Shown: positions 1 through 34,452, numbered from the stretch's first letter. The stretch is DNA of 64,000 nucleotides from an uncultured Gammaproteobacteria bacterium (GCA_964474445.1 CAYYSJ010000002.1:53610-117609), one strand, 5' to 3'. Notes: generated by a model not told the origin, from the sequence alone. Translations and numbers: made by a program.

Positions 1-487
1 AAAACATTGTGATAAATGCGGTCAGTAATGGATCAACAACATAAAAATGAGCTGTTTGAATTGGTAATGTAGAAAGTCCATAGAGTGCACATCCTAACAG
101 CGCAATATTGGAAGAAAACATTCTTTTTCCCAGTAAGTAAATAAAAAGAATTGTTATGACTTCTGCAAAAATGGAGATATATCTTCCAACAAAACTCATG
201 CCACTATAGAGTCCAAGATCTGGAGACCATACTGAAGCAATGCTACTAATACTTTTTAAGAGATAAAGAGGGAAAGACCCATATGCAAAAAAATGTGGGT
301 TGAAAGAACTCATTGGAGAGAAAAATTCTGATAAAGAATGAGGGAGGCTAATTGGTTGAGAAAAGAGAATAATTGCTCTTTCATCAGGGTGAAGATGAAA
401 GTTTGCGTCCCAATTCATGCCATAAAACCTTATGCAAAAAGAAAAGAAAAGAATAAAGGCAAGTAGTATTCTGGCAATATATTTCAT
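1..487 (-). CDS. GT-C fold glycosyltransferase (PMT/ArnT-like, GT39/GT83-type). This is the N-terminal part; the C-terminus lies beyond the window edge. Not in the ORF table because it is truncated.
   Basis: The reverse-strand translation from ATG at 487 reads MKYIARILLAFILFFSFCIRFYGMNWDANFHLHPDERAII.., polytopic membrane. The N-terminus and the HPDE motif parallel the adjacent paralog at 484..2091. Confidence 0.55.
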   Translation of the reverse strand, partial: MKYIARILLAFILFFSFCIRFYGMNWDANFHLHPDERAIILFSQPISLPHSLSEFFSPMSSFNPHFFAYGSFPLYLLKSISSIASVWSPDLGLYSGMSFVGRYISIFAEVITILFIYLLGKRMFSSNIALLGCALYGLSTLPIQTAHFYVVDPLLTAFITMF

Positions 488-2091
488 AACTTTTTCTCAA
501 ATATCATAACAGTCGGTCTGTCAAAAACATTTGCAGTTTCTTCTACATGATAAAGAGGATTACCTATATATGTTAACGTACAAAAGATATCACAGGGAGT
601 TTCATAGATTTTTCTGTAGTTGGTGTTGTTGGATAGTAGATTTGTATAAAATGTTGCTCCAAGAGGGAATACGGTCTTATTTATTAATCTACTGTGAATA
701 AGTCGTTGGCTTGGAAGCACAAAAACATGTGCAATAGAAAAGTTCTGTTCAACTGTTGTAAATGCTTGTGGATTTTGATCCACCTCATACATGGGAAGTT
801 GAGTAATGGTAGGGAACATGTTATTAAATGGAAGAATTCCTAAATCATACGGTTCCGTTACAAGCATAGTAGTATTTGCAATATGATCCTGTGCCCATTG
901 TGCTGCGACAACTCGTGTATCAGGAGAAAAATAAACAGTTTTGATAAAAGAGTAGGTAAAGGCAAGTGAAACAAGAGCTATTGTTACATAGAGAAACCGT
1001 TTCACTTGAAGTGGTATGTATTCTAGCCACACAGAAATAATAATATACACAAATCCAAGTGTGGGGACCATATACCGTGCCCATTTTACAAATAAGAATG
1101 CTTGGGATACGAATATTATTAAGTAGTATATCGTAAGTAAAACCAATACAAGGTTTTTATGTTTTATTCCTTTTATCACAAGGAAAAGAAAAGCAGGAAT
1201 TAAAAGAACAGTTAGCAATGGATTCAATAAGAATGGGTATACCATTATAAACTGGAAAATAACAGGGATAGTGTTAAAAAAACTTCCTGTATAAAAAACA
1301 GGTAATGACCCGAGTGCTACTGAAGACTCATACTGCATACTCCCTAAGAAATCTTTTGTATCAAGTATTGCGAAAGGATTCGTTATAAGATAGATTGACC
1401 CAATGCAAAAAAAGTAAAGGAGAAAAGAAGAAAATACTTTAGGAATTACTATTGATTTTGTTTTAAAAAAGTAAAGAAAACTACAAAGAAGAGGAAAAAC
1501 GATGAGGGTAAGGTTTGAAATCTTTATTGATACTAAAATTCCCATAACTATCCCTGCAAAAAGTATATGTTTCACAGAGCTATTTCGTAGGAGAAGTAGT
1601 GAAGCATAAAACAGCCAAAGAGCAAAAAATGTTGTCCATATCTCAAATGTTCCAAAATGTGCATATTGAATAAACCCAGTACTAATGACTGCGAGAAAAG
1701 CACTAAATAACCCGATGCGTTTATTCCATAGTTTTGTGCCAATAAAAAAAAGGGAAAGTATTGTAAGAGATGATAACAATGCAGAGAAAAAGCGTAGCCA
1801 AAAAATCATAAAAGCAAAATCATTTTGTTTATTTGCTATATAGGAAAAAAGAGTACTTGCAAGGTAGATAAAATAGATAGGCAAAGATCCATATGCGAAA
1901 AAATGTGGATTCATCTGTGAAGGAAAAGAAAGTTGGCTTATCGCGTAGATGATATTTCTCTCATCAGGATGAAAGAAATATGGTGCCCCCCAGAGAAGAT
2001 TATAAAACCGGAGGAATGCTCCTATGAGAATAAGTATACCTATCAGAAACCAATAATTTTTGAGAGCAAAAAAACGATTTGAAAAATTCAT
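484..2091 (-). CDS. GT-C fold glycosyltransferase, dolichyl/undecaprenyl-phosphate-sugar dependent (PMT/ArnT-like, COG1807-type)
   Basis: 535 aa with more than 10 predicted TM helices and the N-terminal motif FYNLLWGAPYFFHPDERN typical of the PMT_2/ArnT family. A tandem paralog lies downstream. Confidence 0.7.
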   Translation of the reverse strand: MNFSNRFFALKNYWFLIGILILIGAFLRFYNLLWGAPYFFHPDERNIIYAISQLSFPSQMNPHFFAYGSLPIYFIYLASTLFSYIANKQNDFAFMIFWLRFFSALLSSLTILSLFFIGTKLWNKRIGLFSAFLAVISTGFIQYAHFGTFEIWTTFFALWLFYASLLLLRNSSVKHILFAGIVMGILVSIKISNLTLIVFPLLCSFLYFFKTKSIVIPKVFSSFLLYFFCIGSIYLITNPFAILDTKDFLGSMQYESSVALGSLPVFYTGSFFNTIPVIFQFIMVYPFLLNPLLTVLLIPAFLFLVIKGIKHKNLVLVLLTIYYLIIFVSQAFLFVKWARYMVPTLGFVYIIISVWLEYIPLQVKRFLYVTIALVSLAFTYSFIKTVYFSPDTRVVAAQWAQDHIANTTMLVTEPYDLGILPFNNMFPTITQLPMYEVDQNPQAFTTVEQNFSIAHVFVLPSQRLIHSRLINKTVFPLGATFYTNLLSNNTNYRKIYETPCDIFCTLTYIGNPLYHVEETANVFDRPTVMIFEKKL

Positions 2092-2147
2092 TATTTCATA
2101 ATTTCACTATCTCATTACCAAAAAATAACAATGGGACAATGTCGAAA

Positions 2148-3416
2148 TTATCTTGTTATGCGGCTTGCAATTTTTTGTCCAAGTTCTATCGCATAATTTG
2201 TCCCTCTATCCCATGGGTATACCTGTTGGATGTTCGCAAGATAAATATTTGCAAGTGGCGTATCAAAAGGAGGCATAATCTTTGAGTAATTAACTGGAAT
2301 AATTGGTTGTGCAAAAGGGGTTTTAAAAATATCAACACCAACCAAATCTTTTTCGTACCCTGGATGAAGAACTTGGAGGATATGATCAAATTCTTTCAGA
2401 ATTTCTTTTTCCGACATTGCAAAGTATGGGTGATTATGGGGAAGATAATTCCCAAGATAGACAAGATGTTCATTATTGTAATGTCTTTTATTCATAAAAT
2501 TTGTATGTTCGACAACAGCCATAACAGGTGAAGCAGGGTCACATATACTCAACCAATATGTATTATCTGTTAAAAATTGTTTTTTAAGACGCAGAACAAC
2601 AGTCATAGCCCCAAGTCCTTCTAATTTTTGTAATTTCTCTTTATAGTCCTGTGGGAGAGAAGGACATAGTTTAAGAAATGGGAAAGAAGGAAGTGTCACA
2701 ATCACTTTATCAAATTCATATTTTTCTTTTCCAACAACAACATAGGGTCTATCTTTTCCAGGTTTTATTTCTGTAACTCCTGCACTGTAGAGAAATGTAC
2801 CACCTTTTTCTTTAATTGCTTTTTCCAACTGTTTAGCAAATAGTAAAAAGCCTCCTCGTGGGTAAGCAAGAGAGGGAGTTCTTTTAACAATACGTGCCCA
2901 AAACCAAGCCAGGGAAATCCTATCTGCAAAGCTACCAAATTTATTTGTTAATTGTGGTTCCCAAATTAACTTATATGCCTTTTCCCCCATTGCTTTAGGA
3001 AGATATTCTGAAGCTTTTACCCTCTCCATCGGTTTCCAGAAAGGGTTAATACGAAGCAATCCAAGTGTTTCAACCATTCTCAGCCTATCCCAAATAGGTA
3101 GTTTTGGAAAAGTCAGAAATGCTGAAGGAGAATCAAGTTGATATATTTTCCCGTCTATAAATACAGATGTTTTTGGACGTTTTATCGTAACAGGGAAATG
3201 AATTTCTTTAGCAAGCGATAGGACTATATTGTCGTTAGTAAACCAGTGGTGGTAGTAACTTTCAAGCGTCCATTCCCATTCTTTTTTTGTGTATCCTATG
3301 GCAAGTCCTCCTGGATTCTGGTCTTTCTCAAATACGGTAACAGAATGTCCCTCTTTACTGAGTGCATATGCTGCTGCGAGTCCTGTAAACCCTGCTCCAA
3401 TAATTCCTATTTTCAT
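2148..3416 (-). CDS. FAD-dependent oxidoreductase (amine-oxidase / UDP-galactopyranose-mutase-like Rossmann fold)
   Basis: N-terminal MKIGIIGAGFTGLAAAYAL..VFEKDQNPGG dinucleotide-binding motif. HHWFTND resembles the Glf HIFHTND motif. 422 aa. Confidence 0.6.
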   Translation of the reverse strand: MKIGIIGAGFTGLAAAYALSKEGHSVTVFEKDQNPGGLAIGYTKKEWEWTLESYYHHWFTNDNIVLSLAKEIHFPVTIKRPKTSVFIDGKIYQLDSPSAFLTFPKLPIWDRLRMVETLGLLRINPFWKPMERVKASEYLPKAMGEKAYKLIWEPQLTNKFGSFADRISLAWFWARIVKRTPSLAYPRGGFLLFAKQLEKAIKEKGGTFLYSAGVTEIKPGKDRPYVVVGKEKYEFDKVIVTLPSFPFLKLCPSLPQDYKEKLQKLEGLGAMTVVLRLKKQFLTDNTYWLSICDPASPVMAVVEHTNFMNKRHYNNEHLVYLGNYLPHNHPYFAMSEKEILKEFDHILQVLHPGYEKDLVGVDIFKTPFAQPIIPVNYSKIMPPFDTPLANIYLANIQQVYPWDRGTNYAIELGQKIASRITR

Positions 3417-4771
3417 AATGCTGTTCCACGGCTTATCAAGAATAATACAATACCAATAACCGTTGTGACAATACCGGTTGTTCCTGCAACGACAATGGTA
3501 TTACTTCCTGTTGGTGGAAGTGTAGGGCGAGGTGTGACTGATGGAGTGGTCTTGATAGCCAATGTTGGCTGTAAGGTTGGTGTTAGAGATGAGGGTTGGA
3601 TAGTTGGAGTGGGAGTTGGGATTGCTATGGTTATGGTTGGTTGTGCAGAGGGTGTTGCTGACTGGTCTACCTGGGATCCTGCTGCAAAAACAGTAAATGA
3701 TTGTTCTATGGTGTGTAAAATACCGTTTGCGTCTTTTGTCATAACAGTTAATGTATGGTTACCGGGAGACAATTGCTGTGTTGGGCGATATGTCCAATTA
3801 CCAGCAGTATCTGTTGTAACAGTGCCAGTAATGACTTGGGATGAATGTATCTCTATCGTTACCGTTTGGTTAGGAAGAGCTTTTCCACTAAATCGAGGTT
3901 GTGCATCGGTAAAAGCTTCGTTCTTTTTTGGAGTAATAATAACTGGGGTTGCTGCCAGTGTATTAGAGGATGAAAATGCCGGAAAACCGATAGATGCTGC
4001 TGCAGAATCTGATGCCAAAGGCTGCAATGATGTAGTGAAGTTGTATGTCTGAGAAAGTGTGATAAGAGGGATAGGGTTACTTCCCGATAGTAAAACAGTT
4101 GCTTGAGATGTTGACGTCCCATCGGTTGCTAAAATATGAAGAGGGGTTGCATTTTGGAATACAAAAGGAGTCTTCCCATCAGCTGTTTTGTACGTATTGA
4201 GTGGAATAGTATAGATCCCTGAGGCTTTGGTAAGTGTTGATAATAGTTCTCCTTTATCAGCAGTAACATAAACCAGGGCTTCTCCTGGGATGTTTCCATC
4301 TGCAGTAACCAATTTACCACTCACTGGGTTTTGAGAAGACGGATTGTTATTAAGTTTTGGTGCTGTTTGGAGAGTGAAATATGCGTCGTGATTAAGGTAT
4401 GTTGTTGTCCCCGATGTTATTGAAAAAATATACGCTGTTCCTGGTAGAAGATTTTTGATACTGATACTGTGTACTCTGTAAAGCTGTGGGTTTCCTGACT
4501 GTTGATCTCTCTCATCAAGAATTGTTTTGAGGGAGTTTTTATCTTGTCCCATAGAGATTGTTCCGATAACTTTTGCATCTGTTGTATAAGTAATTGTTGC
4601 ATTAGTATCAGAGATATTGGTTACTCGGACGTTTTGTGGGTTTTCTGAAGGTGCAGCGCCACTAAAAAAAATAACGCCTGATTGCACTAAAAATGTTGTA
4701 CCTAAAACAGTTGCGGTAATAAAAACTAATGCCAAGATTGTAGGAACTTTCCTATTCCAGATGTTTCTCAT
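3413..4771 (-). CDS. Secreted cell-surface protein with Fn3/Ig-like repeats, a Thr/Pro-rich linker and a C-terminal LPPTG sortase-type sorting signal
   Basis: Signal-peptide-like N-terminus. The C-terminus reads ..PTPTPTIQPSSLTPTLQPTLAIKTTPSVTPRPTLPPTGSNTIVVAGTTGIVTTVIGIVLFLISRGTAL (LPxTG + hydrophobic + R). The start overlaps the upstream gene stop by 4 nt. Confidence 0.6.
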   Translation of the reverse strand: MRNIWNRKVPTILALVFITATVLGTTFLVQSGVIFFSGAAPSENPQNVRVTNISDTNATITYTTDAKVIGTISMGQDKNSLKTILDERDQQSGNPQLYRVHSISIKNLLPGTAYIFSITSGTTTYLNHDAYFTLQTAPKLNNNPSSQNPVSGKLVTADGNIPGEALVYVTADKGELLSTLTKASGIYTIPLNTYKTADGKTPFVFQNATPLHILATDGTSTSQATVLLSGSNPIPLITLSQTYNFTTSLQPLASDSAAASIGFPAFSSSNTLAATPVIITPKKNEAFTDAQPRFSGKALPNQTVTIEIHSSQVITGTVTTDTAGNWTYRPTQQLSPGNHTLTVMTKDANGILHTIEQSFTVFAAGSQVDQSATPSAQPTITIAIPTPTPTIQPSSLTPTLQPTLAIKTTPSVTPRPTLPPTGSNTIVVAGTTGIVTTVIGIVLFLISRGTAL

Positions 4772-5088
4772 TGCAGTGAACCTCCTTGAGATGCTACCTT
4801 TGCAGACGCAGTAGCAACATAAAGCGGTGGAAGTGGTGTAGGCGTTGGACTTGGTGTCAGGGAAATCGTTGGTATAGGAGAGATAGTAAAGGCAGGATTG
4901 ACGACAAGACGTTTAGCCATCTTTGCTAGCGTTGCAGTATCAAAGCTTGCTTCAATCGGAGCAATAGCTTCACTTGTTGTTGTGCTGATTGTTGAGGTCT
5001 GTGAGTTGTGAACAATAGTAAATGCGATCCACGCAAAGACAACCACACAGGCTGATGCTAATAAAAATAATACATCTCGTTGTTTCAT
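4768..5088 (-). CDS. Small membrane-anchored protein (possible pilus-assembly accessory)
   Basis: One N-terminal TM helix (LFLLASACVVVFAWIAFTIV) and a Thr/Pro-rich tail. Translationally coupled between the PilO-like and LPPTG genes. Confidence 0.4.
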   Translation of the reverse strand: MKQRDVLFLLASACVVVFAWIAFTIVHNSQTSTISTTTSEAIAPIEASFDTATLAKMAKRLVVNPAFTISPIPTISLTPSPTPTPLPPLYVATASAKVASQGGSLQ

Positions 5089-5090
5089 AC

Positions 5091-5726
5091 TTATGCTTTA
5101 AAATATGTTTTCCCTCGTATTTGCATTCTGAATGTTGTGTCTATCTTACCCACATGGGTAATACTTATTGTTTCAAGGGTGATAAGTCTATTCAAGTTGG
5201 CAAGATTGGTGACATATTTGATCAAATTTGCATAATCTCCTTGTATTTCAATAGAAAATTCATACGTTGTATATTTTGCAGCAGCAGTTTTTTGCGTGAT
5301 ATCAACTGGAAGCGTCTGGACACGGGTTAGCTGTACATTAGAAGTTCCAGCAAGAGTATGAATTTGTCCCATGAATATGTCAATTGATAAATTGGTTGGA
5401 ATTGCATCATAAAGGGGTGGCAATGTGTTTTGTAGATTAGAATAAAGCTGCTGAAGCGTAGTGAGATTAGCTATTTTTTTTTGCAAGCTTTGATGAGTAA
5501 AATTGTCATCGTCTAACTGTTTTTGCAAATCAGCAATAGTACCTAATGTTGGGTTAATTGCAAAAAGACCAAAAAAGGCGATAGTGAGAAGGGTCAGAGT
5601 AAGTGTTGTAAACTGTTTAGCTCGTTTCTCTTTCATACCAGGAATAATTGAAAGGAATAATTTGCTTTCTTTTGGGTTACCAATGCCAAGATTTTTTATA
5701 CTGGGTAAAGATATTTTCAGATTCAT
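5091..5726 (-). CDS. PilO-like type IV pilus assembly protein
   Basis: A single TM helix (TLTLTLLTIAFFGLFAI) followed by a coiled-coil (IADLQKQLDDDN..LQQLYSNLQ) and an alpha/beta C-terminal domain. Adjacent to the PilN-like gene with ATGA overlap. Confidence 0.45.
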   Translation of the reverse strand: MNLKISLPSIKNLGIGNPKESKLFLSIIPGMKEKRAKQFTTLTLTLLTIAFFGLFAINPTLGTIADLQKQLDDDNFTHQSLQKKIANLTTLQQLYSNLQNTLPPLYDAIPTNLSIDIFMGQIHTLAGTSNVQLTRVQTLPVDITQKTAAAKYTTYEFSIEIQGDYANLIKYVTNLANLNRLITLETISITHVGKIDTTFRMQIRGKTYFKA

Positions 5727-6280
5727 AATAGTGTTTTTTGTTTTGTTGTTTTAAAAGTTGCTGTTAATCCAATAGTATACTCTCCTGTTGCTGATTTATT
5801 CTCTAGCTTATCAATACTTACTTTTGCAATTGAAGTATATGCTTTAAGTTTTTTGACAAATGTTGAAAGAGAAACAACAGAACCAACAGAGGCATCAATA
5901 TGAATATCCGTTGTTGAGTAAAAAATATTTTGTACAACCATATCTGATGGGAAAAAGCTGGTAAGATCGAGGAGCGTTTTTAGTTGTGTTGTCGTATCTG
6001 CATCAATAGTTTTTGCAAGTAAAAGCCTATCTTGCACATTGTGATATGTTGTCTCATTGTTTTTGAGTAAACCAACAATAACTTTTTCCTGATTAATCCG
6101 GTCATTAAGGTCAAGAATTTGTCTATCAAGACCAAATCGGAAAAGAAATGCTCCAAGGGCAATCGCCTCAGTTGCTATCACTAATACTCTTCCGATAGAA
6201 AGCGCCCACGAAAAAAAACGGTCAATAAAGTGTTCCCCTCTATTTTTTGCAAGATTAATTGTAGGAGAAGATTTTTCCAT
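5723..6280 (-). CDS. PilN-like fimbrial assembly protein
   Basis: N-terminal INLAKNRGEH.. resembles the PilN INLLP motif. One TM helix, then a coiled-coil/periplasmic domain. 185 aa. Confidence 0.45.
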   Translation of the reverse strand: MEKSSPTINLAKNRGEHFIDRFFSWALSIGRVLVIATEAIALGAFLFRFGLDRQILDLNDRINQEKVIVGLLKNNETTYHNVQDRLLLAKTIDADTTTQLKTLLDLTSFFPSDMVVQNIFYSTTDIHIDASVGSVVSLSTFVKKLKAYTSIAKVSIDKLENKSATGEYTIGLTATFKTTKQKTLL

Positions 6281-6380
6281 ACTACTATTAGTCTAGGAAG
6301 TATGGGCTAAATTGTCAAAGGAAAAATCATGTAAGTGAAGGATTGCTTGTATAAGTTTTAGATGAAGTGAAACAACAGGT

Positions 6381-6698
6381 TTATTTTTTCTTTGGAGCTG
6401 CTTTTCTAACCACTTTTTTCTCTGATTTTGCAGTCACTTTTGCTGATGCAGTTTCTCCTTTTCCACCGCCAATAAGCTTGGAAAGGGCTGATTTGATACG
6501 TGCAGCTTTATTTTTATGAAGAATATGTTTTTTTGCAGCTTTATCTGTCAAACTTGTTGCTTTTTTAACCGTTGCAAGAGTTGGACTTTTCTTTGCTGCT
6601 TTAATAGCATCTTTTAATGCATCTTCTTTCTTTGCATTTCGGACCGTTCGCTTTTTGTCCTGGCGAAGTTTCTTTTTTGCTGATTTTATAACTGGCAT
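6381..6698 (-). CDS. rpsT: 30S ribosomal protein S20 with a Lys-rich C-terminal extension
   Basis: MPVIKSAKKKLRQDKKRTVRNAKK...HKNKAARIKSALSKL matches the S20 family. Start chosen at MPVIK inside the 6381..6704 ORF. Confidence 0.85.
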   Translation of the reverse strand: MPVIKSAKKKLRQDKKRTVRNAKKEDALKDAIKAAKKSPTLATVKKATSLTDKAAKKHILHKNKAARIKSALSKLIGGGKGETASAKVTAKSEKKVVRKAAPKKK

Positions 6699-6746
6699 GA
6701 GCATATTTTATCATGCTATACTGAAGATCGCAACTATAAACATCAT

Positions 6747-8405
6747 ATGGTAAAGAATTTCTTTCAAAAAAGCCTTTCTATCCTCTTCAAACAGCAAACA
6801 AATATCCTTTCTGCGGCCTTCATTATCATGGCAACGGTTATTCTCTCCCAATTTTTAGGTCTTATTAGACAGCGTTTCTTAGTAGGTATTTTTGGTGCAT
6901 CTAATACCCTTGGAGTTTATTTAGCATCGTCTCGTTTACCTGACTTTCTATTTCAACTCATTATCGCTGGAGCATTGTCGAGTGCCTTTATCCCTGTTTT
7001 TTCTGATTATCTTGCTCGAGGAAAAGAGAAGGAAGGGCATGAATTTGCCTCAACGCTCCTTGCCCTTGGTCTTGGTATCTTTTTTGTTATTTCTCTTATT
7101 CTTTTTGTGTTTGCTGAATATTTTTCCTATCTTGTTGCTCCCGGCTTTAGCCATTCCCAGCTTACTCTTATGGCTAACCTCATGCGAGTTATTATCGTTG
7201 GGGAAATGTTTTTTATTATTGCAAGTTTCCTTTCAGCAATTCTTCAATCATACAGTCATTTTTTTATTCCAGGGATTGCTGCTGCTTTATATAATTTAGG
7301 AATTATTCTTGGTATCGTGACATTGTGGCCATGGCTTGGAATTTATGCTCCAGCAGTTGGTGTTATCGTAGGTGCTCTTATTTTTGTACTTCTCCAGATA
7401 CCACTGGTGAGAAGTGTTGGATTTCGTTTTCATCCAACATCTTTAAAAAATGTGAGCGGTATAAAAGAAGTCTTTCATCTTATGTGGCCACGAACTATCT
7501 CTTTGGGAATTTTTCAAATAGGGACATTGCTTACTGTCACGCTTATTTCATTTTTATCAGACCCTGGAAGAAGTTATGTGATTTTTGATTATGCTCAAAC
7601 CTTAGCATTTGCGCCTGTTGCTCTCTTTGGTCAGACTATTGCTCAGGCTGCATTCCCGGTCCTTTCCAGACAGAGGGAGAAGCTAGATGATTTTAAGGTA
7701 ACATTTTTAACAAGTCTTTCACAAATGCTCTATCTTGTTTTGCCAATCTCCATTTTATTCTTAGTGCTTCGTATTCCAATCGTTCGTCTTGTTTACGGTG
7801 CATCACAGTTTGACTGGCCTGCGACGGTCATGACAGGAAGAATTTTGGCACTTTTTACTATTTCACTTTTTGCACAAGCGCTAACCTATCTTGTTTCTCG
7901 AGCCTTTTATGCATTACATGACACTGTCATCCCTCTTGTTGTTGGTGCTGTCTCAACAGCTGTTATGCTTGGGATTGCTGCAATTATGGTCTTTGGGCTG
8001 CATGCTGGCATATCAAGCATTGCCATCTCATATTCCTTTGGGAGTATTTTTCAATTTATTGTGTTGTTTGTATTACTTTCCTATAAAACAGGAGGCTTTG
8101 AAAGGTCATATCTATTCTTTTCATTTTCAAAAATTATTATCGCAACCTTTTTCACCGGATTTGCTCTCTATATTCCTCTCAAACTCTTAGATCAGCTTGT
8201 TTTTGATACAACTCACACCATTAACCTTATTCTTCTGACTGGTATTACCAGTCTTATTGGATTATCACTCTACCTTTTCCTCACATGGATTTTTCAAGTA
8301 AAAGAAGCACAAACCTATGTTGTTATGTTTAAGAGTCTTGGAAATTGGAAAGAAATTCTTACTAAAATTCAGGAGCTTCTCGAAGGGACCAGTCCAAAAG
8401 TGTAA
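6747..8405 (+). CDS. murJ: Lipid II flippase MurJ/MviN
   Basis: 552 aa, 14 TM-type protein. N-terminus LSAAFIIMATVILSQFLGLIRQRFLVGIFGAS..YLASSRLPDF is typical of MurJ. Confidence 0.85.
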   Translation: MVKNFFQKSLSILFKQQTNILSAAFIIMATVILSQFLGLIRQRFLVGIFGASNTLGVYLASSRLPDFLFQLIIAGALSSAFIPVFSDYLARGKEKEGHEFASTLLALGLGIFFVISLILFVFAEYFSYLVAPGFSHSQLTLMANLMRVIIVGEMFFIIASFLSAILQSYSHFFIPGIAAALYNLGIILGIVTLWPWLGIYAPAVGVIVGALIFVLLQIPLVRSVGFRFHPTSLKNVSGIKEVFHLMWPRTISLGIFQIGTLLTVTLISFLSDPGRSYVIFDYAQTLAFAPVALFGQTIAQAAFPVLSRQREKLDDFKVTFLTSLSQMLYLVLPISILFLVLRIPIVRLVYGASQFDWPATVMTGRILALFTISLFAQALTYLVSRAFYALHDTVIPLVVGAVSTAVMLGIAAIMVFGLHAGISSIAISYSFGSIFQFIVLFVLLSYKTGGFERSYLFFSFSKIIIATFFTGFALYIPLKLLDQLVFDTTHTINLILLTGITSLIGLSLYLFLTWIFQVKEAQTYVVMFKSLGNWKEILTKIQELLEGTSPKV

Positions 8406-10459: not shown

Positions 10460-11587
10460 TTACAACCCTACTACCAGTGCTACTCCCAAGACCGTTAAAA
10501 CTGCTCCGCCAATCCCTACAAAAAGAATCGTTTGGCCAGGGCCTGTTGGAGGGAGATTTCCATTTACTCCGCTGCCGACAGTAATCGTTTGCGAACAAGA
10601 AGCAGGATTACTTACATTGCCCGAGGATGTTGTGAGTGTAGCGGTTGCTGTAAAAGTACCATTCCCGCTGTAGGTATGGGGCGTTTGAGCATTGACATTA
10701 CCAGTACCAATTCCAGAACCGCTTGCAACAGTGTCAACAAGCCCATCACCATAGTTAAGAGCAATTTTTGTAATGCTGTCGTTGGTTGCATTTCCTGTCG
10801 TGGTAAAGGTAACATTCAGTGGTGCATTTCCTTTGGTTACACTTGCCGCAAGACTACTGCAGGTAACAGAAATATTTGCACCATTTGTGGTGGACCCACC
10901 GCCAGTCCCTCCTGATCCACCTGAACTTCCCGACCCACCACCAGTCCCTCCTCCGCCACCCGATGTTCCTCCGCTACCAGGTGTTGGTGTTGCAGTTCCA
11001 CCGCCTGCAGATGCTGTCCCTATGGTTATTAATCCGTCTTGTCCTGCTTGGAAGACATTTTCTGCTGCTTGATCTCCTGCTGCTGTTGAGAGTGCTTGGT
11101 TTTGGCCATTAACAAAACTTATTTTCGTTGGGGTTCCTGGATCAGTGTTTGCTTTTGCAGTGAGTTTGATACTTGCTATCTTTGCACGCGATTTAATAAT
11201 GGCATTATCGTTCTGACCAACAGAAAGAGTAAAGCTTACCTGACAAAGACTGCTATCGTTGCAGGTAATGGTTGGTTTTTCAAGTACGGTATACGTTGTA
11301 CTGTCAATGGTAACTGGGTTATCGCTTGCTTTCGTTAACTTCGTTCCGTCATATGTAAAAGTAGCTTTGACGAAAGATACTGCATTGACTCCTTGTGGGT
11401 CAACAATAATGGGAATGTCCATACTGTCTCCAACATTGACAGGACTTGCAGGTACGGTAAAGGAAAATTTGGTTGAAGCTGCAGCACCACTTTTAGTTTG
11501 AGTTTGATTTTGGAGAACAAAAATAGCAAGGGGAAGGCCAACAAGGAGTGTTAATCCAAGTCCCAGTAATATAAGTTTCTTAATCAT
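10460..11587 (-). CDS. Secreted surface protein with a Gly/Ser/Thr-rich linker, a PKD-like domain and a C-terminal LPPTG sorting signal
   Basis: Probable start at MIKKLILLGLGLTLLVGL (signal peptide). It carries a GGGTATPTPGSGGTSGGGGGTGGGSGSSGG.. linker. A PKD-like segment reads NVTFTTTGNATNDS..YGDG..HTYSGNGTFTATATL. The C-terminus is NLPPTGPGQTILFVGIGGAVLTVLGVALVVGL. Confidence 0.55.
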   Translation of the reverse strand: MIKKLILLGLGLTLLVGLPLAIFVLQNQTQTKSGAAASTKFSFTVPASPVNVGDSMDIPIIVDPQGVNAVSFVKATFTYDGTKLTKASDNPVTIDSTTYTVLEKPTITCNDSSLCQVSFTLSVGQNDNAIIKSRAKIASIKLTAKANTDPGTPTKISFVNGQNQALSTAAGDQAAENVFQAGQDGLITIGTASAGGGTATPTPGSGGTSGGGGGTGGGSGSSGGSGGTGGGSTTNGANISVTCSSLAASVTKGNAPLNVTFTTTGNATNDSITKIALNYGDGLVDTVASGSGIGTGNVNAQTPHTYSGNGTFTATATLTTSSGNVSNPASCSQTITVGSGVNGNLPPTGPGQTILFVGIGGAVLTVLGVALVVGL

Positions 11588-11666
11588 AATACTAGCATAC
11601 AACGATAAGAAACAAATACGCAAATAATTAAATAATAAAAAATGAATAGCAATCAAGAAAGGGGGC

Positions 11667-11724
11667 TTGACAAAAAATATCAAAGTCTGGTATAAAATTA
11701 GCAGTCACTCACCCTGAGTGATTT
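11667..11724 (+). promoter_or_regulatory. groESL promoter (TTGACA-18-TATAAA) with an overlapping degenerate CIRCE-like HrcA operator (TTAGCAGTC-N9-GAGTGATTT)
   Basis: The inverted repeat at 11698..11724 lies 54 nt upstream of the groES ATG. It matches the CIRCE consensus TTAGCACTC-N9-GAGTGCTAA at 14/18 positions. Confidence 0.6.
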
Positions 11725-15240: not shown

Positions 15241-16203
15241 ATGGATGGACAAAATACTAATCCACAAACCCCACAAGCAAATACACCAACGAATCCAGAA
15301 GTATCTGAGACACAAACCTCTGCAGTAGCTCAACCTGCTCAAAATCAAGAGCAGCTTTCTGTTGCATCACAATCTCCTGCAGAATCAAGCACCGGATCAA
15401 CTTCCACTGAACAGAATACCACTACACCTGTAAGCCCAACTCCTTCCTCTGGATCTGAACCAGTGCAAGCTTCTACTCCACAAAGCCAAACCCCTCAAGA
15501 AACACCCGCTTCGGCAACACAACCAGAACCAACACCTGTTGCAGTAACTCCAATGACCCAACAGCCTGTCGTGGGAACACCGGATTCTCTGCAACAGGCA
15601 GCTGGAGTACCAGCTGTTCCTCCAACTCCAAAAAAGGGCATTAGCATTTGGCTTGTGTTGTCATTTATCGTTCTGCTTTTTGCAGGAATAGGAGGCCTTT
15701 ATTTTTATATGGTAAATAATATGCAGTCAATTCCAACAGTACCTAGACTTGCTTACCCAAACAAAGCCACCAAACCCACAGTTGCTGTTAATTTGTCTCC
15801 TTCTCCTTCCAGTACACAAAGCGCTGTAGGACAGGGAAGTGTGAGTGGCACGCTCTGTTATCCATCAAGCACTATCCCAGCTGGGACAATTACTGCAAAA
15901 GATATGACAACAAATAAATTGTATACGCAAGCATATGCAGGATCCGGGGCAGCAGGAAGTACAACATATACGTTTTCATTGCCAATCGGTATGTATTATC
16001 TCAAATTTACTCCAACACAGAATCAAACTGTTGTGGGATATTATACAGATTATTCAAGCTGTGTTGGCAATTCAACAAATCCAAATTGCTCAGGGCAAAA
16101 GTTGCGACCTCTTCTCGCTGCCACGGTCTCAGCAAATATGACAGTACAAAACATAAATTTGTGTGATTATTATTATCCAACGAACACTCCTCCACAATTC
16201 TAG
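15241..16203 (+). CDS. Membrane-anchored protein with a T/P/Q-rich disordered N-terminus and a Cys-containing extracytoplasmic C-terminal domain
   Basis: The N-terminal 140 aa are low-complexity (TPQANTPTNPEVSETQTS...). One TM helix (ISIWLVLSFIVLLFAGIGGLYFYMV). The C-terminal domain has 6 Cys. Confidence 0.45.
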   Translation: MDGQNTNPQTPQANTPTNPEVSETQTSAVAQPAQNQEQLSVASQSPAESSTGSTSTEQNTTTPVSPTPSSGSEPVQASTPQSQTPQETPASATQPEPTPVAVTPMTQQPVVGTPDSLQQAAGVPAVPPTPKKGISIWLVLSFIVLLFAGIGGLYFYMVNNMQSIPTVPRLAYPNKATKPTVAVNLSPSPSSTQSAVGQGSVSGTLCYPSSTIPAGTITAKDMTTNKLYTQAYAGSGAAGSTTYTFSLPIGMYYLKFTPTQNQTVVGYYTDYSSCVGNSTNPNCSGQKLRPLLAATVSANMTVQNINLCDYYYPTNTPPQF

Positions 16204-17332: not shown

Positions 17333-18475
17333 ATGAAATTATATCCTTTTATTGCATTCCTACTCCTTTTTCTCCTTCTTCCATTTTCTGTTTTTGCTGC
17401 TGATCAGCAAACAGTTATTCTTTCTAAGAATGAAACAGTAAATCATGATTATTTTGCTACAGGAGGAAGTGTTGATATTGCAGGAACAGTCAATGGTGAT
17501 GTCTATGCTGGAGGAGGTAATGTGTTAATTGATGGGACAGTGAATGGTGATGTCCTTGCTGCAGGTGGACAAGTAACAGTAAGGGGAACTGTTCAGAATA
17601 TACGAGTAGCCGGAGGACAAATTGTTATTGACGGCAAGGTCAATGGAAATGTGACTGCTCTTGGAGGGAACATAACGACAACAGACACATCCACTATTAG
17701 CGGAGGCCTTGTTGGTGCAGGGGGACAATATAATTTACTTGGGCCTGTTGGTAAAACCGTCTCCATTGCATCTGGTCAAATAACTCTTGGAAGTATGATC
17801 GGAAGCGATGTCTGGCTGAATAGTCAAACTATTATCCTTACTCCCCAGGCAAAAGTAAATGGAAATGTTTCTTATGTCAGTCCACAGAATGCCCAGATCG
17901 CAAATGGTGCTATTATCAGTGGAAAAGTAAGTCACTCTTTTCCTCCTCAAAAACAGGAAAGACATGCGCGTGGTCTTATTGCAGCACTGGCAGGGCTTCG
18001 AATAGGTGTATCTATCGTGAGCTTTTTAGTAAGTCTTGTCTTTGGACTTTTATTGTTTCTCCTGATTCCTGTATATTCTGAAAGGATAACAGAACATATT
18101 TCACGCCATCCCTGGCAATCACTTCTTGTAGGAATTGTTGGTTGGGTACTCACACCTCTCGCCATTATTCTCCTTACAATAACACTTATTGGTATTCCAT
18201 TTGCAGTGGTTGTAGGCATTGCGATAGGTATCCTTTCCTATATTGGAAAAATCCTTGCGGCGGTTGTTATTGGACAATGGATAGTAGCACGGTTTGATAA
18301 ACGGAAAAATAATATTGTTGCACTCTTGGTTGGACTAATCGCAGTTGAGATAGTTGGACTTATTCCTGTCCTGGGTTGGTTATTTGCGTTTATCGTTGCA
18401 GCCATCGGATTTGGTGCAGTACTTTTTATGGAGAGAATATACTATACAGAATTTCGAGCGAAAAAACTCATTTAA
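17333..18475 (+). CDS. Signal-peptide protein with bactofilin-like beta-helical repeats and a C-terminal multi-TM domain
   Basis: MKLYPFIAFLLLFLLLPFSVFA-AD signal peptide, then repeated (G)TVNGDV.. / AGG.V.I.G.VNGNV motifs, then 4 or more TM helices. Start taken at the second ATG because the TGCTATAAT -10 box ends 2 nt before the first ATG. Confidence 0.5.
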   Translation: MKLYPFIAFLLLFLLLPFSVFAADQQTVILSKNETVNHDYFATGGSVDIAGTVNGDVYAGGGNVLIDGTVNGDVLAAGGQVTVRGTVQNIRVAGGQIVIDGKVNGNVTALGGNITTTDTSTISGGLVGAGGQYNLLGPVGKTVSIASGQITLGSMIGSDVWLNSQTIILTPQAKVNGNVSYVSPQNAQIANGAIISGKVSHSFPPQKQERHARGLIAALAGLRIGVSIVSFLVSLVFGLLLFLLIPVYSERITEHISRHPWQSLLVGIVGWVLTPLAIILLTITLIGIPFAVVVGIAIGILSYIGKILAAVVIGQWIVARFDKRKNNIVALLVGLIAVEIVGLIPVLGWLFAFIVAAIGFGAVLFMERIYYTEFRAKKLI

Positions 18476-19571
18476 CAATTTGTTCCCAGGGAAATCCTTT
18501 TCGTCCAAAGTGGCCATACGCAGCAGTCTTTTTATATAGAGGTTTTCGTAAATCAAGTCGTTTAAGAATACCACTTACAGATGTGTCTAAAAGTTCTTTC
18601 ATAAAATGTTTGATAACCTTGTCGCTCTTTTTAGCAGTTCCAAACGTCTCGATGTCTTGCATAACAGGATGTTTGACTCCAATACAGTAAGCAAGTCTCA
18701 CCTCACATTTTTCAGCCAACTTATGGGCAACGATATTTTTTGCTAAAAACCGTGCAGCATATGCTGCAGACCTATCTACTTTTGTTGGGTCTTTTCCAGA
18801 AAAGGCACCACCACCAATTCGTGCATAGCCTCCATATGTGTCAACAACAATTTTTCTGCCAGTTACCCCAGTATCGCTTGCAGGTCCTCCAATGTGCCAT
18901 ACGCTTGTTCCATTGACAATCAGTTGGTCTTTTTTAATAGCAAATCCATATTTTTTGAGAAGTGGTGAAACTACTTTTTGGTACAAATCATGCTCTACTT
19001 CAGGAAGTGTGACTTTCTCATCATGAGGAACGGCAATAACAACTGTAGTAACTCCTATTGGTTTGCCATTGTTATACTCAACAGTTACTTGTGTTTTGCC
19101 ATCTGGTCGAAGATAAGGTATTTTTTTTGATGTTCGTGCTGTATCCAGTTTTTCAGCAAGTCGATGCGCAAGGGTGATGGGGAGAGGCATCAGCTCTGGT
19201 GTCTCGTTACAAGCAAATCCAAACATCATTCCTTGATCTCCTGCCCCTTCATTATCAACACCAACTGCTATTTCAGGAGATTGCTCATGGATATATACCT
19301 CAACAGAAGATTTATAGGTAAAACGGAAAAGAGGATTGGTATATCCCAAGTCCTTTATGACATTTCGTGCGACTTTCTCAAAGTGTACTTTTGCATTAGC
19401 TGTAACTTCTCCGGCCAACACAATTTTTTCTTCAGTCACCAATGTCTCAACAGCAACTCGTCCTTTAGAATCTTCTCTCAGTACAGCATCCACTATCGCA
19501 TCGCTGACCTGATCACAAATCTTATCAGGGTGTCCACTACAAACTGACTCTGATGTAAAAATACTGCTCAT
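18468..19571 (-). CDS. metK: S-adenosylmethionine synthetase
   Basis: MSSIFTSESVCSGHPDKICDQVSDAIVDA..GAGDQGMMFGFA..GGGAFSGKDPTKVDRSAAYAAR. Start at the internal Met, because the upstream 67 codons of the table ORF are the riboswitch leader. Confidence 0.93.
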   Translation of the reverse strand: MSSIFTSESVCSGHPDKICDQVSDAIVDAVLREDSKGRVAVETLVTEEKIVLAGEVTANAKVHFEKVARNVIKDLGYTNPLFRFTYKSSVEVYIHEQSPEIAVGVDNEGAGDQGMMFGFACNETPELMPLPITLAHRLAEKLDTARTSKKIPYLRPDGKTQVTVEYNNGKPIGVTTVVIAVPHDEKVTLPEVEHDLYQKVVSPLLKKYGFAIKKDQLIVNGTSVWHIGGPASDTGVTGRKIVVDTYGGYARIGGGAFSGKDPTKVDRSAAYAARFLAKNIVAHKLAEKCEVRLAYCIGVKHPVMQDIETFGTAKKSDKVIKHFMKELLDTSVSGILKRLDLRKPLYKKTAAYGHFGRKGFPWEQIVK

Positions 19572-19607
19572 ATGCTTAGACTCCTTTTTCGTCTTCCTTT
19601 TGATTAC

Positions 19608-19745: not shown

Positions 19746-19840
19746 TAAAGCAGAAATGTAAAAAGATTGCAAGAGACTAAATGAAAAATACTAAATGTGT
19801 TTCAGGTGTTAGGGAGTCGTATGCTTCACCAAAAAATATT

Positions 19841-34407: not shown

Positions 34408-34452
34408 ATAACTGCTATTGTTATTATAACAATTATATCAGTTATAGCTAGT

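What the first reader, a model, noticed from the sequence alone, without database searches (positions are those of the whole stretch)
1..6280. A coupled minus-strand operon links pilus-assembly-like proteins, an LPPTG surface protein with a Thr/Pro linker, an FAD oxidoreductase and two PMT/ArnT-like GT-C glycosyltransferases
Seven consecutive minus-strand genes have 4-nt ATGA overlaps or zero gaps: 5723/5726, 5088/5091, 4768/4771, 3413/3416 and 484/487. That implies one translationally coupled transcript. The secreted protein at 3413..4771 carries a Thr/Pro-rich linker (PTPTPTIQPSSLTPTLQPTLAIKTTPSVTPRPT). Such linkers are the classical targets of protein O-mannosyltransferases (GT39, PMT family) in Actinobacteria. 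Two PMT/ArnT-like polyprenyl-phosphate-sugar-dependent GT-C enzymes and a Glf-like FAD enzyme sit directly downstream. A dedicated surface-protein O-glycosylation module attached to a pilus-like assembly system is a plausible reading. It is an unusual combination in a minimal genome.
Basis: partly seen in the sequence, partly recalled or inferred. Interest (0 to 1): 0.7.

Follow-up and report, generated by a model that had tools for sequence, protein, structure and literature searches.

The report
Conserved envelope glycosylation operon in Levybacteria
Tiny candidate-phyla bacteria keep one tightly packed operon that joins two pilus-type membrane proteins and a stalked surface protein to a flavoenzyme and membrane glycosyltransferases; it probably decorates the cell surface with sugars, but no member has been studied experimentally.

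Summary
Seven minus-strand genes lie at 1-6280: PilN-like, PilO, a 106-aa bitopic protein, a 452-aa Ig-domain surface protein, a flavoenzyme and two GT-C glycosyltransferases. Four of the six junctions are ATGA overlaps, against 2 of 41 same-strand pairs elsewhere in the window.

The core order PilN-PilO-small-Ig protein-flavoenzyme is kept in 69 of 70 Levybacteria species genomes. It persists in relatives whose flavoenzyme is only 40-44% identical.

- The flavoenzyme is not Glf-like. It belongs to NCBIfam PRK07233 and has a protoporphyrinogen-oxidase/phytoene-desaturase fold.
- LPPTG is present here but in only 20 of 80 orthologues. The Thr/Pro stalk and C-terminal anchor are what is conserved.
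- No pilM, pilin or pilus ATPase gene lies nearby.
- The GT-Cs have the GT-C-A fold. Yeast Pmt4 is the nearest structure, narrowly ahead of AglB, ALG12 and ArnT. Their number varies between species.

The two halves are separable. The flavoenzyme occurs with GT-Cs in glycan loci lacking the PilN/PilO block, and that block occurs without the flavoenzyme.

Best reading: an extracytoplasmic glycosylation module fed by lipid-linked sugar, co-expressed with a stalked surface scaffold. O-glycosylation of the stalk is plausible but unproven. Cell-wall polymer synthesis is the main rival.

The parts
6290..6318 (-). Promoter-like site TTGACA-17 nt-TAGACT, ending 9 nt before the PilN-like start codon
   Evidence: 10 of 12 consensus matches. 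Sites of this kind are not enriched over shuffles in the region, so this is only a candidate. The upstream rpsT gene (6381-6704) may be co-transcribed; the rpsT>PilN order holds in 33 of 35 and 49 loci.
5723..6280 (-). PilN-like bitopic membrane protein (185 aa). It has the N-terminal S-I-N-L motif (6245-6259), one TM helix, a coiled coil and a C-terminal alpha/beta domain.
   Evidence: The window copy itself has no Pfam hit. Of 41 orthologues, 32 hit PF05137 PilN (best E 1.1e-9). The best PDB profile hit is PilN 3jc8 (E 0.02). I8, N9 and L10 are invariant or nearly so.
5091..5726 (-). PilO-family bitopic membrane protein (211 aa)
   Evidence: PF04350 PilO, E 2.6e-14, 54 bits against a cut-off of 22. 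Weak GspM hit. ATGA overlap with the upstream gene.
4768..5088 (-). Small bitopic protein (106 aa): a conserved N-terminal TM segment, then a Pro/Thr-rich tail (4822-4884)
   Evidence: No family in Pfam or NCBIfam, for the window copy or for 36 orthologues. Always found between PilO and the Ig-domain protein.
3413..4771 (-). Stalked surface protein (452 aa). In order: N-terminal hydrophobic segment (4685-4747), fn3-like domain, middle beta-sandwich, Big_13 Ig-like domain, Thr/Pro stalk (3521-3661), LPPTG (3506-3520), C-terminal TM (3434-3505), short tail.
   Evidence: Big_13 E 1.4e-11. Among 40 orthologues Big_13 hits 40, Pur_ac_phosph_N/fn3 38 and 34, and Big_6 22. The best PDB profile hit is 2yn3 ('putative inner membrane protein'), which I recognise from memory as Ig domains of the SiiE adhesin. 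The stalk and TM are conserved; LPxTG occurs in only 20 of 80.
2148..3416 (-). Soluble or monotopic FAD oxidoreductase (422 aa) of NCBIfam family PRK07233, with the GxGxxG motif at 3381-3398
   Evidence: NF005560: 391 bits against a cut-off of 252. Amino_oxidase E 3.5e-25. AlphaFold model pLDDT 91. Nearest folds are protoporphyrinogen oxidase, phytoene desaturase (TM 0.83) and archaeal proteins of unknown function. Identity is at least 57% across the Levybacteria sampled.
484..2091 (-). GT-C glycosyltransferase 1 (535 aa). Invariant H-P-D-E-R-N in the first outer loop (1954-1971), about 13 helices, and a C-terminal soluble domain with a conserved Cys pair.
1..487 (-). GT-C glycosyltransferase 2, first 162 aa only (cut by the window edge), with the same H-P-D-E-R motif (377-391)
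   Evidence: PMT_2: 27.2 bits. Full-length orthologues of 548-595 aa follow GT-C1 in related loci. It falls in one superfamily with GT-C1 by iterated HMM search (129 paralogues).
6381..8405 (.). Conserved neighbours: rpsT (6381-6704, minus strand) and the divergent MurJ flippase gene (6747-8405, plus strand)
   Evidence: The order MurJ< rpsT> PilN> recurs in nearly all related loci that have enough flank.

Best explanation
This is a lineage-wide cell-envelope operon of Levybacteria and related Microgenomates. It is built from two separable modules that are transcribed and translated together.

Module A is an extracytoplasmic scaffold anchored in the membrane. It comprises a PilN/PilO pair (bitopic proteins that normally heterodimerise), a small bitopic protein with a Pro/Thr tail, and a surface protein with three beta-sandwich domains. 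That surface protein sits on a Thr/Pro stalk of about 50 residues above a C-terminal membrane anchor.

Module B is a glycosylation module fed by lipid-linked sugar. A flavoenzyme on the cytoplasmic side (PRK07233, protoporphyrinogen-oxidase/phytoene-desaturase fold) makes or modifies a polyprenyl-phosphate-linked donor. GT-C enzymes, with an invariant Asp-Glu in their first outer loop, then transfer the sugar to an acceptor outside the membrane.

I commit to Ser/Thr residues of the co-encoded Thr/Pro stalks (the 452-aa and 106-aa proteins) as the most likely acceptor. This would be PMT-like protein O-glycosylation, with the extra, species-variable GT-Cs extending the glycan.

Shown: gene content, coupling, synteny, folds, and the flavoenzyme-GT-C linkage. 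Inferred: the lipid-linked donor, the flavoenzyme's substrate, and the acceptor. I put about 0.75 on the general two-module reading and about 0.4 on the stalk as acceptor.
For: - Coupled operon, above chance.
- The core order PilN-PilO-small-Big13-FAD holds in 69 of 70 species genomes. It also holds in loci with FAD identity of only 40-44% (L094, L092) and in most of 80 divergent metagenome loci.
- The Big13/FAD junction is a -4 overlap in 38 of 80 species.
- A GT-C-type gene lies within 300 nt after the FAD gene in 44 of 71 loci. Most of the rest have a large membrane protein there.
- The FAD-GT-C linkage is independent of lineage. Distant FAD homologues (37-40% identity) sit among PMT_2, PMT or AftD-type GT-Cs, GT2s and epimerases (L090, L091, L093).
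- One homologue is fused to a multi-TM GT-C-like domain (P0327; HMM i-E 1e-7).
- In L093 the order is PMT (with PMT_4TMC)-GT2-FAD, and the GT2 gene overlaps the FAD start.
- GT-C1 has the GT-C-A fold. Its two nearest structures, Pmt4 and AglB, are both protein glycosyltransferases. H41-P-D-E-R-N46 is invariant.
- The Thr/Pro/Ser-rich stalk (0.43-0.67 of the 70 residues before the motif, measured in the 19 orthologues whose LPxTG lies near the C-terminus) is kept in composition, though not in sequence; the other orthologues are visibly Thr/Pro-rich but were not scored.
- The flavoenzyme's nearest folds act on hydrophobic, isoprenoid-type substrates.
Against: - No experiment exists for any member, and no paper was found on PRK07233 or DUF2298 function.
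- Stalk Thr/Pro content does not correlate with the number of adjacent GT-Cs (p = 0.16). The stalk is retained in three species with no GT-C next to the FAD gene (L019, L024, L057).
- GT-C copy number and type vary (0-3 of the PMT_2 type, plus GT87-like, a 545-aa family and DUF2298). A convergent LCP ligase closes the cluster. This pattern is typical of polysaccharide assembly.
- Distant FAD/GT-C loci lack the stalked protein altogether.
- Module A occurs without the FAD gene in 4 of 18 divergent loci.
- The structural preference for PMT over AglB, ALG12 and ArnT is small. The window proteins do not reach the Pfam PMT (PF02366) model.
- No polyprenyl-phosphate-sugar synthase is encoded in the operon itself.
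Confidence: 0.45

Rival explanations
1. Cell-wall glycopolymer synthesis. The flavoenzyme, the GT-C array, the SDR epimerase, the small HAD-like protein and DUF2298 would build an arabinan-, pentofuranan- or teichoic-acid-like polymer outside the membrane from polyprenyl-phosphate sugars. The LCP enzyme would then ligate it to peptidoglycan. On this view the PilN/PilO/Ig-protein block is merely a conserved neighbour in an envelope supercluster (MurJ ... LCP) and is not the acceptor.
For: - A convergent LCP gene closes the cluster in 51 loci, and MurJ opens it.
- The GT-C complement is multiple and variable.
- An SDR epimerase is present in 34 loci. A roughly 180-aa protein with HAD-type DxD...S...K...DDD motifs is present in 44.
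- The genome encodes a decaprenyl-phosphate phosphoribosyltransferase-family UbiA (227 bits against a cut-off of 207) next to a WecA-like GT4, a GT-C and a GT2 at 30594-35946.
- A UbiA gene follows the FAD gene directly in L092 and lies in the cluster in L003.
- An AftD-type GT-C neighbours a distant FAD homologue.
- Published three-component pentofuranose systems combine PPPRS, a HAD phosphatase, GT-C and epimerases. Some have several GT-Cs and, according to the commentary, FAD oxidoreductases (PMC11127046, PMC11194591).
Against: - The FAD gene is translationally coupled to the stalked-protein gene, not to LCP. LCP is on the opposite strand.
- The nearest structural matches of GT-C1 are protein glycosyltransferases.
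- No DprE1/DprE2-type pair was seen, and the UbiA gene is 27 kb away in this genome.
- The HAD assignment of the 180-aa protein is weak (3 of 30 members).
- That protein, the SDR, DUF2298 and LCP lie beyond the window edge and are inferred from relatives.
Confidence: 0.3
2. Type IV pilus accessory locus. PilN, PilO, the small protein and the Ig-domain protein would be the alignment and wall-spanning part of the type IV pilus machine of a monoderm cell, taking the positions of PilN-O-P-Q. The GT-Cs would glycosylate pilins, as TfpW does in Pseudomonas aeruginosa.
For: - Genuine PilN and PilO homologues. The PilN N-terminal I-N-L motif, of the kind that binds PilM, is nearly invariant.
- The gene order mimics pilN-pilO-pilP-pilQ.
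- Type IV pili are widespread in candidate-phyla bacteria and no PilQ is known there (PMC6744442).
- There is precedent for a GT-C that arabinosylates pilins from a polyprenyl-phosphate donor (bioRxiv 10.1101/2020.04.19.049825; PMC11194591).
Against: - No pilM precedes pilN in any locus examined. rpsT is upstream in 33 of 35 metagenome loci, and in every one of the 49 species loci where the upstream gene was identified.
- The 64-kb window has no recognisable PilB, PilT or PilC and no pilin-type class III signal motif.
- In candidate-phyla genomes PilM/N/O usually co-localise with PilB/T/C, which is not the case here.
- The small protein shows no similarity to PilN and has no family hit, PilP included.
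Confidence: 0.15
3. No functional link. Genome compaction and vertical inheritance froze an arbitrary gene order, and the two modules work independently.
For: - The modules are separable in both directions.
- The whole region from GroEL to UvrD is syntenic in this lineage.
- Short gaps are common in this genome: 12 of 41 other same-strand pairs have gaps of 10 nt or less.
Against: - The order persists down to 40% identity of a protein that is otherwise at least 57% conserved, even though the flanks change.
- -4 overlaps are 20-fold enriched in the operon.
- GT-C-type genes remain next to module A even where the FAD gene is missing (3 of 4 such loci).
Confidence: 0.1

Closest known systems
PilM-PilN-PilO(-PilP-PilQ) alignment subcomplex of type IV pili; GspL/GspM of type II secretion
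   Same: The PilO and PilN families are present. Both are bitopic with a coiled coil and an alpha/beta domain. The PilN N-terminal I-N-L motif is conserved. The genes are adjacent and coupled, and are followed by a small membrane protein and a large envelope protein.
   Different: No pilM, pilB/T/C, pilD or pilin lies nearby. The block always sits after rpsT. The fourth and fifth genes are unrelated to PilP and PilQ: one is a Pro/Thr-tailed bitopic protein and the other an Ig-domain protein on a Thr/Pro stalk.
Actinobacterial and eukaryotic protein O-mannosylation (GT39 PMT plus polyprenyl/dolichyl-phosphate-mannose synthase)
   Different: The window proteins do not reach Pfam PMT. They have no PMT_4TMC or MIR domain. 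There are two to three paralogues rather than one. A flavoenzyme partner is unknown in PMT pathways. No donor synthase lies in the operon.
Polyprenyl-phosphate pentofuranose pathways: mycobacterial decaprenyl-phosphate-arabinose (UbiA/DPPRS, phosphatase, DprE1 FAD oxidase, DprE2 reductase, GT-C Aft/Emb, Lcp1), three-component O-antigen systems (Kelly et al. 2024), and TfpW pilin arabinosylation
   Same: The parts list matches: a UbiA of the DPPRS family in the genome, an FAD oxidoreductase, an SDR, a HAD-like protein, several GT-Cs and an LCP ligase. The glycosylation step is extracytoplasmic.
   Different: The flavoenzyme has a different fold from DprE1, which belongs to the vanillyl-alcohol-oxidase type. 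UbiA is not in the operon here. There is no MATE or SMR flippase in the operon. Membership of the GT-Cs in GT136, Aft or Emb was not shown.
Protoporphyrinogen oxidase, phytoene desaturase (CrtI/PDS), HpnE and amine oxidase flavoenzymes
   Same: Same three-domain fold (TM-score 0.77-0.83), an FAD-binding GxGxxG motif, and a helical lobe of the kind that serves as the membrane-binding lobe in protoporphyrinogen oxidase and phytoene desaturase.
   Different: Identity is only 14-19%. The protein belongs to its own family, PRK07233, annotated 'hypothetical'. Its genomic partners are glycosyltransferases, not haem, carotenoid or hopanoid genes.

Membership tests
Type IV pilus alignment subcomplex (PilMNO) | PilO-family protein | tested here: met
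   PF04350, E 2.6e-14, 54 bits against a cut-off of 22.
Type IV pilus alignment subcomplex (PilMNO) | PilN-family protein with the N-terminal PilM-binding type motif (I-N-L-L) | tested here: met
   32 of 41 orthologues hit PF05137 (best E 1.1e-9). The top PDB profile hit is PilN 3jc8. I8, N9 and L10 are invariant or nearly so. The window copy alone has no Pfam hit.
Type IV pilus alignment subcomplex (PilMNO) | pilM encoded with pilN/pilO | tested here: not met
   The gene upstream of pilN is rpsT in this window, in all 49 species loci where the upstream gene was identified, and in 33 of 35 metagenome loci. No PilM family appears in any Pfam-annotated neighbourhood.
Type IV pilus alignment subcomplex (PilMNO) | Co-localisation with pilB/pilT/pilC and pilins | tested here: not met
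   None is recognisable among the ORFs of the 64-kb window. There is no class III signal motif. The rest of the genome could not be read.
GT39 protein O-mannosyltransferase (PMT) | GT-C-A fold with an acidic Asp-Glu pair in the first extracytoplasmic loop | tested here: met
GT39 protein O-mannosyltransferase (PMT) | Match to Pfam PMT (PF02366) and the PMT_4TMC C-terminal module | tested here: not met
   Only PMT_2 is hit (29.5 and 27.2 bits, cut-off 26.1). PF02366 is hit by 2 of 38 homologues. There is no PMT_4TMC or MIR hit.
GT39 protein O-mannosyltransferase (PMT) | Transfer of mannose from polyprenyl-phosphate-mannose to Ser/Thr of secreted proteins | not testable with these tools
   Needs biochemistry or glycoproteomics.
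ArnT (GT83) lipid A aminoarabinose transferase | Match to the ArnT equivalog model | tested here: not met
UDP-galactopyranose mutase (Glf) | GLF domain and mutase fold | tested here: not met
   No GLF hit at E <= 0.1. No mutase among the 50 best Foldseek PDB matches.
NCBIfam PRK07233 (NF005560) FAD oxidoreductase of unknown function | Full-length score above the curated cut-off | tested here: met
   391 bits against a cut-off of 252, covering residues 1-421.
Sortase-dependent LPXTG surface protein | LPXTG, hydrophobic segment and basic tail at the C-terminus | tested here: met
   LPPTG at 418-422, hydrophobic segment at 423-446, tail SRGTAL with a single Arg.
Sortase-dependent LPXTG surface protein | Signal conserved among orthologues, and a sortase available | tested here: not met
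   LPxTG occurs in 20 of 80 orthologues. The others carry P-x-[TPS]-G-[SN]-like variants. Gram_pos_anchor hits 1 of 40. No TLxTC-motif ORF is in the window. The literature reports sortase as near-ubiquitous in Microgenomates (PMC6744442), so processing in this species remains possible.
Three-component polyprenyl-phosphate pentofuranose glycosylation system | PPPRS (DPPRS-type UbiA with a phosphoribose phosphatase), a flippase and a GT-C encoded together | tested here: inconclusive
   A DPPRS-family UbiA is present (227 bits against 207) but lies at 30594-31535, 27 kb away. UbiA is adjacent to the FAD gene in L092 and lies in the cluster in L003. The HAD-like 180-aa protein is only weakly assigned. 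MurJ is the only MOP-family protein nearby.

The most novel reading that the evidence does not exclude
The PRK07233 flavoenzyme would be a new, widespread enzyme of lipid-linked glycosylation, in one of two forms. It could be a non-homologous functional analogue of DprE1 that oxidises a polyprenyl-phosphate sugar. Or it could be an isoprenoid saturase/desaturase that tailors the polyprenyl-phosphate carrier into a dolichol-like lipid. In addition, in Microgenomates a PilM-less PilN/PilO pair would have been recruited as a scaffold. That scaffold would couple the donor pathway and the PMT-like GT-Cs to the assembly of a heavily O-glycosylated stalked surface protein. The result would be a dedicated surface-glycoprotein assembly line unrelated to pilus biogenesis.
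Probability: 0.15. Interest if true: 0.8.

Novelty: new variant of a known kind. Interest (0 to 1): 0.55.

Why it matters
Candidate-phyla bacteria live attached to other cells, yet their surface chemistry is almost unknown. This operon is one of the most rigidly conserved envelope loci in a whole class of them. It links an orphan PilN/PilO pair, a stalked Ig-domain protein and a glycosylation module.

It also exposes a flavoenzyme family annotated only as 'hypothetical' (762 clusters at 50% identity with E <= 1e-30). Members of that family repeatedly sit beside GT-C glycosyltransferases in distant lineages and in one case are fused to a GT-C-like domain. That points to an undescribed step in making or tailoring lipid-linked sugar donors.

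All of this can be tested with glycoproteomics on existing enrichments and with in-vitro assays.

Tried and rejected
- Glf/UDP-galactopyranose mutase reading of the flavoenzyme: rejected.
- ArnT reading of the GT-Cs: rejected.
- LPXTG as a conserved sortase signal: rejected as a family feature.
- Correlation of stalk Thr/Pro content with GT-C copy number: no significant signal (Mann-Whitney p = 0.16, Spearman rho 0.25 with p = 0.08). The species are not phylogenetically independent.
- Profile-profile comparison of the 545-aa family and of DUF2298 with the PMT_2-type GT-Cs: no similarity. I therefore do not call those proteins GT-C on my own evidence.
- The small 106-aa protein: no family by Pfam on 36 orthologues and no similarity to PilN.
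- The 180-aa protein: no PDB or NCBIfam match and only 3 of 30 weak HAD hits.
- Sequence search of GT-C1 against PDB: nothing.
- Literature searches for PRK07233, for DUF2298 function, for a polyprenol reductase of the phytoene-desaturase type, and for GT39 in Patescibacteria: nothing relevant.
- Look-up of the source contig: only a 4-kb fragment was returned, so the genes beyond the window edge were inferred from the 86%-identical relative L002/L010.
- Motif search for sortase and pilin genes in the window: none found.
- Not used: the third homologue search.

Full report
**1. The observation.** The minus strand of 1-6280 carries seven consecutive ORFs.

| Coordinates | Length | Identity |
|---|---|---|
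| 5723-6280 | 185 aa | PilN-like |
| 5091-5726 | 211 aa | PilO |
| 4768-5088 | 106 aa | small bitopic protein |
| 3413-4771 | 452 aa | stalked Ig-domain protein |
| 2148-3416 | 422 aa | FAD oxidoreductase |
| 484-2091 | 535 aa | GT-C1 |
| 1-487 | first 162 aa | GT-C2, cut by the window edge |

ATGA overlaps are present at 5726/5723, 4771/4768, 3416/3413 and 487/484. The PilO->106-aa junction is a 2-nt spacer. Four of six junctions with a -4 overlap compares with 2 of 41 same-strand pairs elsewhere in the window (Fisher p = 0.0012).

The starts are not artefacts. N-termini are conserved in orthologues. In 80 related species -4 is the commonest spacing at each core junction except PilO->small protein, whose median is +1. 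No terminator-like site separates the genes. A promoter-like TTGACA-17-TAGACT lies 9 nt before the first start codon, but such sites are not enriched over shuffles here.

**2. What the proteins are.**
- PilO is a clear Pfam member (E 2.6e-14).
- The first gene has no hit by itself. However, 32 of 41 orthologues hit Pfam PilN (best E 1.1e-9), and the orthologue profile's best PDB hit is Myxococcus PilN. The N-terminal S-I-N-L motif, the type that binds PilM in characterised systems (my knowledge), is nearly invariant.
- The 106-aa protein has a conserved TM segment and a Pro/Thr tail, and no family.
- The 452-aa protein has, in order, an N-terminal hydrophobic segment, an fn3-like domain, a middle beta-sandwich, a Big_13 Ig-like domain, a Thr/Pro stalk (371-417), LPPTG (418-422) and a C-terminal TM helix. 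Its orthologue profile's best PDB match is entry 2yn3, listed as a 'putative inner membrane protein'. I recognise this entry from memory as Ig domains of the SiiE adhesin.
- The FAD enzyme scores 391 bits against NCBIfam PRK07233, a 'hypothetical protein' (cut-off 252), and matches Pfam Amino_oxidase. Its model (pLDDT 91) is closest to protoporphyrinogen oxidase, phytoene desaturase (TM 0.83), two archaeal structural-genomics proteins and amine oxidases. No UDP-galactopyranose mutase is in the top 50, and no GLF domain is hit.
- H41-P-D-E-R-N46, just after the first helix, is invariant. The ArnT equivalog model is far below its cut-off.

**3. Synteny.** The nearest species-representative genomes are labelled Candidatus Levybacteria/Levyibacteriota. 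At least 588 loci in GTDB representatives encode a relative of the flavoenzyme.

In the 80 best loci, PilN-PilO-small-Big13-FAD is intact in 69 of 70 with enough upstream flank. rpsT and a divergent MurJ gene lie upstream. Downstream of the FAD gene the content varies:
- 0-3 GT-Cs of the PMT_2 type. The 129 paralogues form one superfamily by iterated HMM search.
- Alternatively, an unassigned ~545-aa membrane protein, with or without a GT87-like ~420-aa protein.
- An SDR epimerase (34 loci).
- A ~180-aa protein with HAD-type motifs (44 loci).
- DUF2298/Chlor_Arch_YYY (62 ORFs).
- A convergent LCP ligase (51 loci).

In the closest relative (86% FAD identity) the order after the FAD gene is GT-C fragment, GT-C2, SDR, 180-aa, DUF2298, LCP. 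That is probably what lies beyond this window's edge.

**4. Are the two halves one system?** I used representatives at 50% identity to reach distant flavoenzyme homologues.

| Locus | FAD identity | Arrangement |
|---|---|---|
| L094 | 44% | Same operon |
| L092 | 40% | PilN-PilO-small-Big13, two extra genes, FAD, then UbiA and PMT_2 |
| L093 | ~40% | No PilN/PilO/Big13. Order TIM-PMT(+PMT_4TMC)-GT2-FAD, then a 581-aa protein, a 180-aa-like protein, GT4, a methyltransferase, PMT and DUF2298. The GT2 gene overlaps the FAD start. |
| L090 | 40% | FAD fused to a SAM methyltransferase, among GT2s, DegT, SDR and three PMT_2 GT-Cs |
| L091 | 37% | FAD fused to a ~400-aa multi-TM domain that matches the GT-C HMM (i-E 1e-7), beside an AftD-type GT-C |

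Conversely, 80 metagenome loci found with a divergent PilO profile nearly all read MurJ< rpsT> PilN> PilO> small> Big13>. Fourteen of the 18 with enough flank have the FAD gene. Four lack it, and three of those still have GT-C-type genes next door.

The flavoenzyme-GT-C link is therefore the broader, lineage-independent one. The PilN/PilO/stalked-protein block is a distinct module that is joined to it across Microgenomates-type lineages. No locus has pilM.

**5.
- 'Glf-like' fails.
- LPPTG is real here but occurs in only 20 of 80 orthologues. The rest carry P-x-[TPS]-G-[SN]-like variants, and Pfam Gram_pos_anchor hits 1 of 40. The conserved features are the Thr/Pro/Ser-rich stalk and the C-terminal anchor. 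Among the 19 orthologues whose LPxTG lies near the C-terminus, Thr/Pro/Ser make up 0.43-0.67 of the preceding 70 residues.
- The combination is the norm for this lineage, not an oddity.
- No pilus ATPase, platform protein or pilin gene, and no sortase-like motif, is in the 64-kb window. In candidate-phyla genomes PilM/N/O normally co-localise with PilB/T/C (PMC6744442).

**6. Mechanism.**

Shown:
- A coupled operon.
- A PilN/PilO pair.
- A stalked Ig-domain protein.
- A flavoenzyme with the protoporphyrinogen-oxidase/phytoene-desaturase fold.
- GT-C-A transferases with an invariant outer-loop Asp-Glu.
- A recurrent flavoenzyme-GT-C association, including a fusion.

Inferred:
- GT-C enzymes use polyprenyl-phosphate-linked donors and act outside the membrane (established for the superfamily).
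- The flavoenzyme has no signal peptide and is linked variously to GT2- or UbiA-type donor synthases. It most likely acts on the lipid-linked donor at the cytoplasmic face, on either the sugar or the polyprenyl chain. The variety of associated synthases and the isoprenoid-type fold lean slightly toward the lipid.
- The acceptor is unresolved.

I favour O-glycosylation of the co-encoded Thr/Pro stalks (about 0.4). The nearest structures of GT-C1 are protein glycosyltransferases. The FAD gene is translationally coupled to the stalked-protein gene. L093 shows a PMT-GT2-FAD trio.

The main rival is a wall glycopolymer (0.3). It is supported by the variable GT-C array, the SDR, the HAD-like protein and LCP. 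It is also supported by a DPPRS-family UbiA in this genome (30594-31535; 227 bits against a cut-off of 207) and by the published three-component pentofuranose systems (PMC11127046, PMC11194591).

A test of the stalk hypothesis, stalk Thr/Pro content against GT-C number, gave no significant signal.

**7. Comparison and novelty.**
- The block works like, and partly belongs to, the PilN/PilO family, but it fails the pilM and co-localisation criteria for a pilus locus.
- The GT-Cs resemble PMTs but fail the Pfam PMT and PMT_4TMC criteria.
- The parts list resembles decaprenyl-phosphate-arabinose and three-component systems, but the flavoenzyme has a different fold from DprE1 and UbiA is not in the operon.

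No paper in the searchable library addresses PRK07233 or DUF2298 function. I rate it a new variant of known kinds: a conserved but uncharacterised pairing of an orphan PilN/PilO-stalked-protein scaffold with a flavoenzyme-dependent GT-C glycosylation module. Interest is moderate (0.55). It would be higher if the flavoenzyme proves to be a new donor-pathway enzyme.

Noticed in passing
window 30594-35946 (minus strand): A second glycosylation cluster. It holds a UbiA-family protein that passes the decaprenyl-phosphate phosphoribosyltransferase model (227 bits against a cut-off of 207), a WecA/MraY-like GT4, a 491-aa GT-C that hits both PMT and PMT_2, and a 497-aa GT2-like protein. It suggests that this organism makes a polyprenyl-phosphate pentose donor.
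   Followed up: partly
window 10460-11683 (minus strand): A second LPPTG protein (cohesin/PKD-like) with no basic tail after its C-terminal helix. Among 25 orthologues only 10 keep LPxTG; most of the others carry degenerate x-[TP]-G-[PS]-type variants. This parallels the stalked protein and hints at a lineage-specific, non-canonical C-terminal sorting signal.
   Followed up: partly
window 19624-19738 (minus strand): A SAM-I/IV riboswitch (47.8 bits against a gathering score of 41.1) lies upstream of the methionine adenosyltransferase gene. The mechanical ORF 18468-19772 therefore over-extends the true start.
   Followed up: no
P0251, P0384, P0327 (loci L090, L091): Natural fusions of the PRK07233-type flavoenzyme. 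Two carry a C-terminal SAM methyltransferase. One carries an N-terminal multi-pass domain of about 400 aa that matches the GT-C profile.
   Followed up: partly
L031:11280-12917 and 18 other species loci (alignment A6): An unassigned ~545-aa membrane protein family (invariant K-x-W-S-D-F ... I-P-x-I-R-S-F) takes the place of GT-C1 directly after the FAD gene in about 20 species. It is often followed by a ~420-aa GT87-like protein. It has no Pfam or NCBIfam hit and no profile similarity to the PMT_2 GT-Cs.
   Followed up: partly
L010-L089 record titles: Many species-representative genomes with this Levybacteria-type locus are titled 'uncultured Gammaproteobacteria bacterium'. This looks like a placeholder or a mislabel in the deposited records.
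   Followed up: no
window 15241-16203 (+) and 28921-29589 (+): Two further proteins have Thr/Pro-rich segments (at least 0.47 Thr+Pro over 30 residues). Such linkers are therefore not unique to the operon.
   Followed up: no
window 1-64000: ARAGORN found no tRNA or tmRNA gene in 64 kb.
   Followed up: no
window 6280-6318 (minus strand): The candidate -10 hexamer ends only 9 nt before the PilN-like ATG, and no Shine-Dalgarno-like sequence lies between them. If this promoter is used, the transcript would be nearly leaderless.
   Followed up: no
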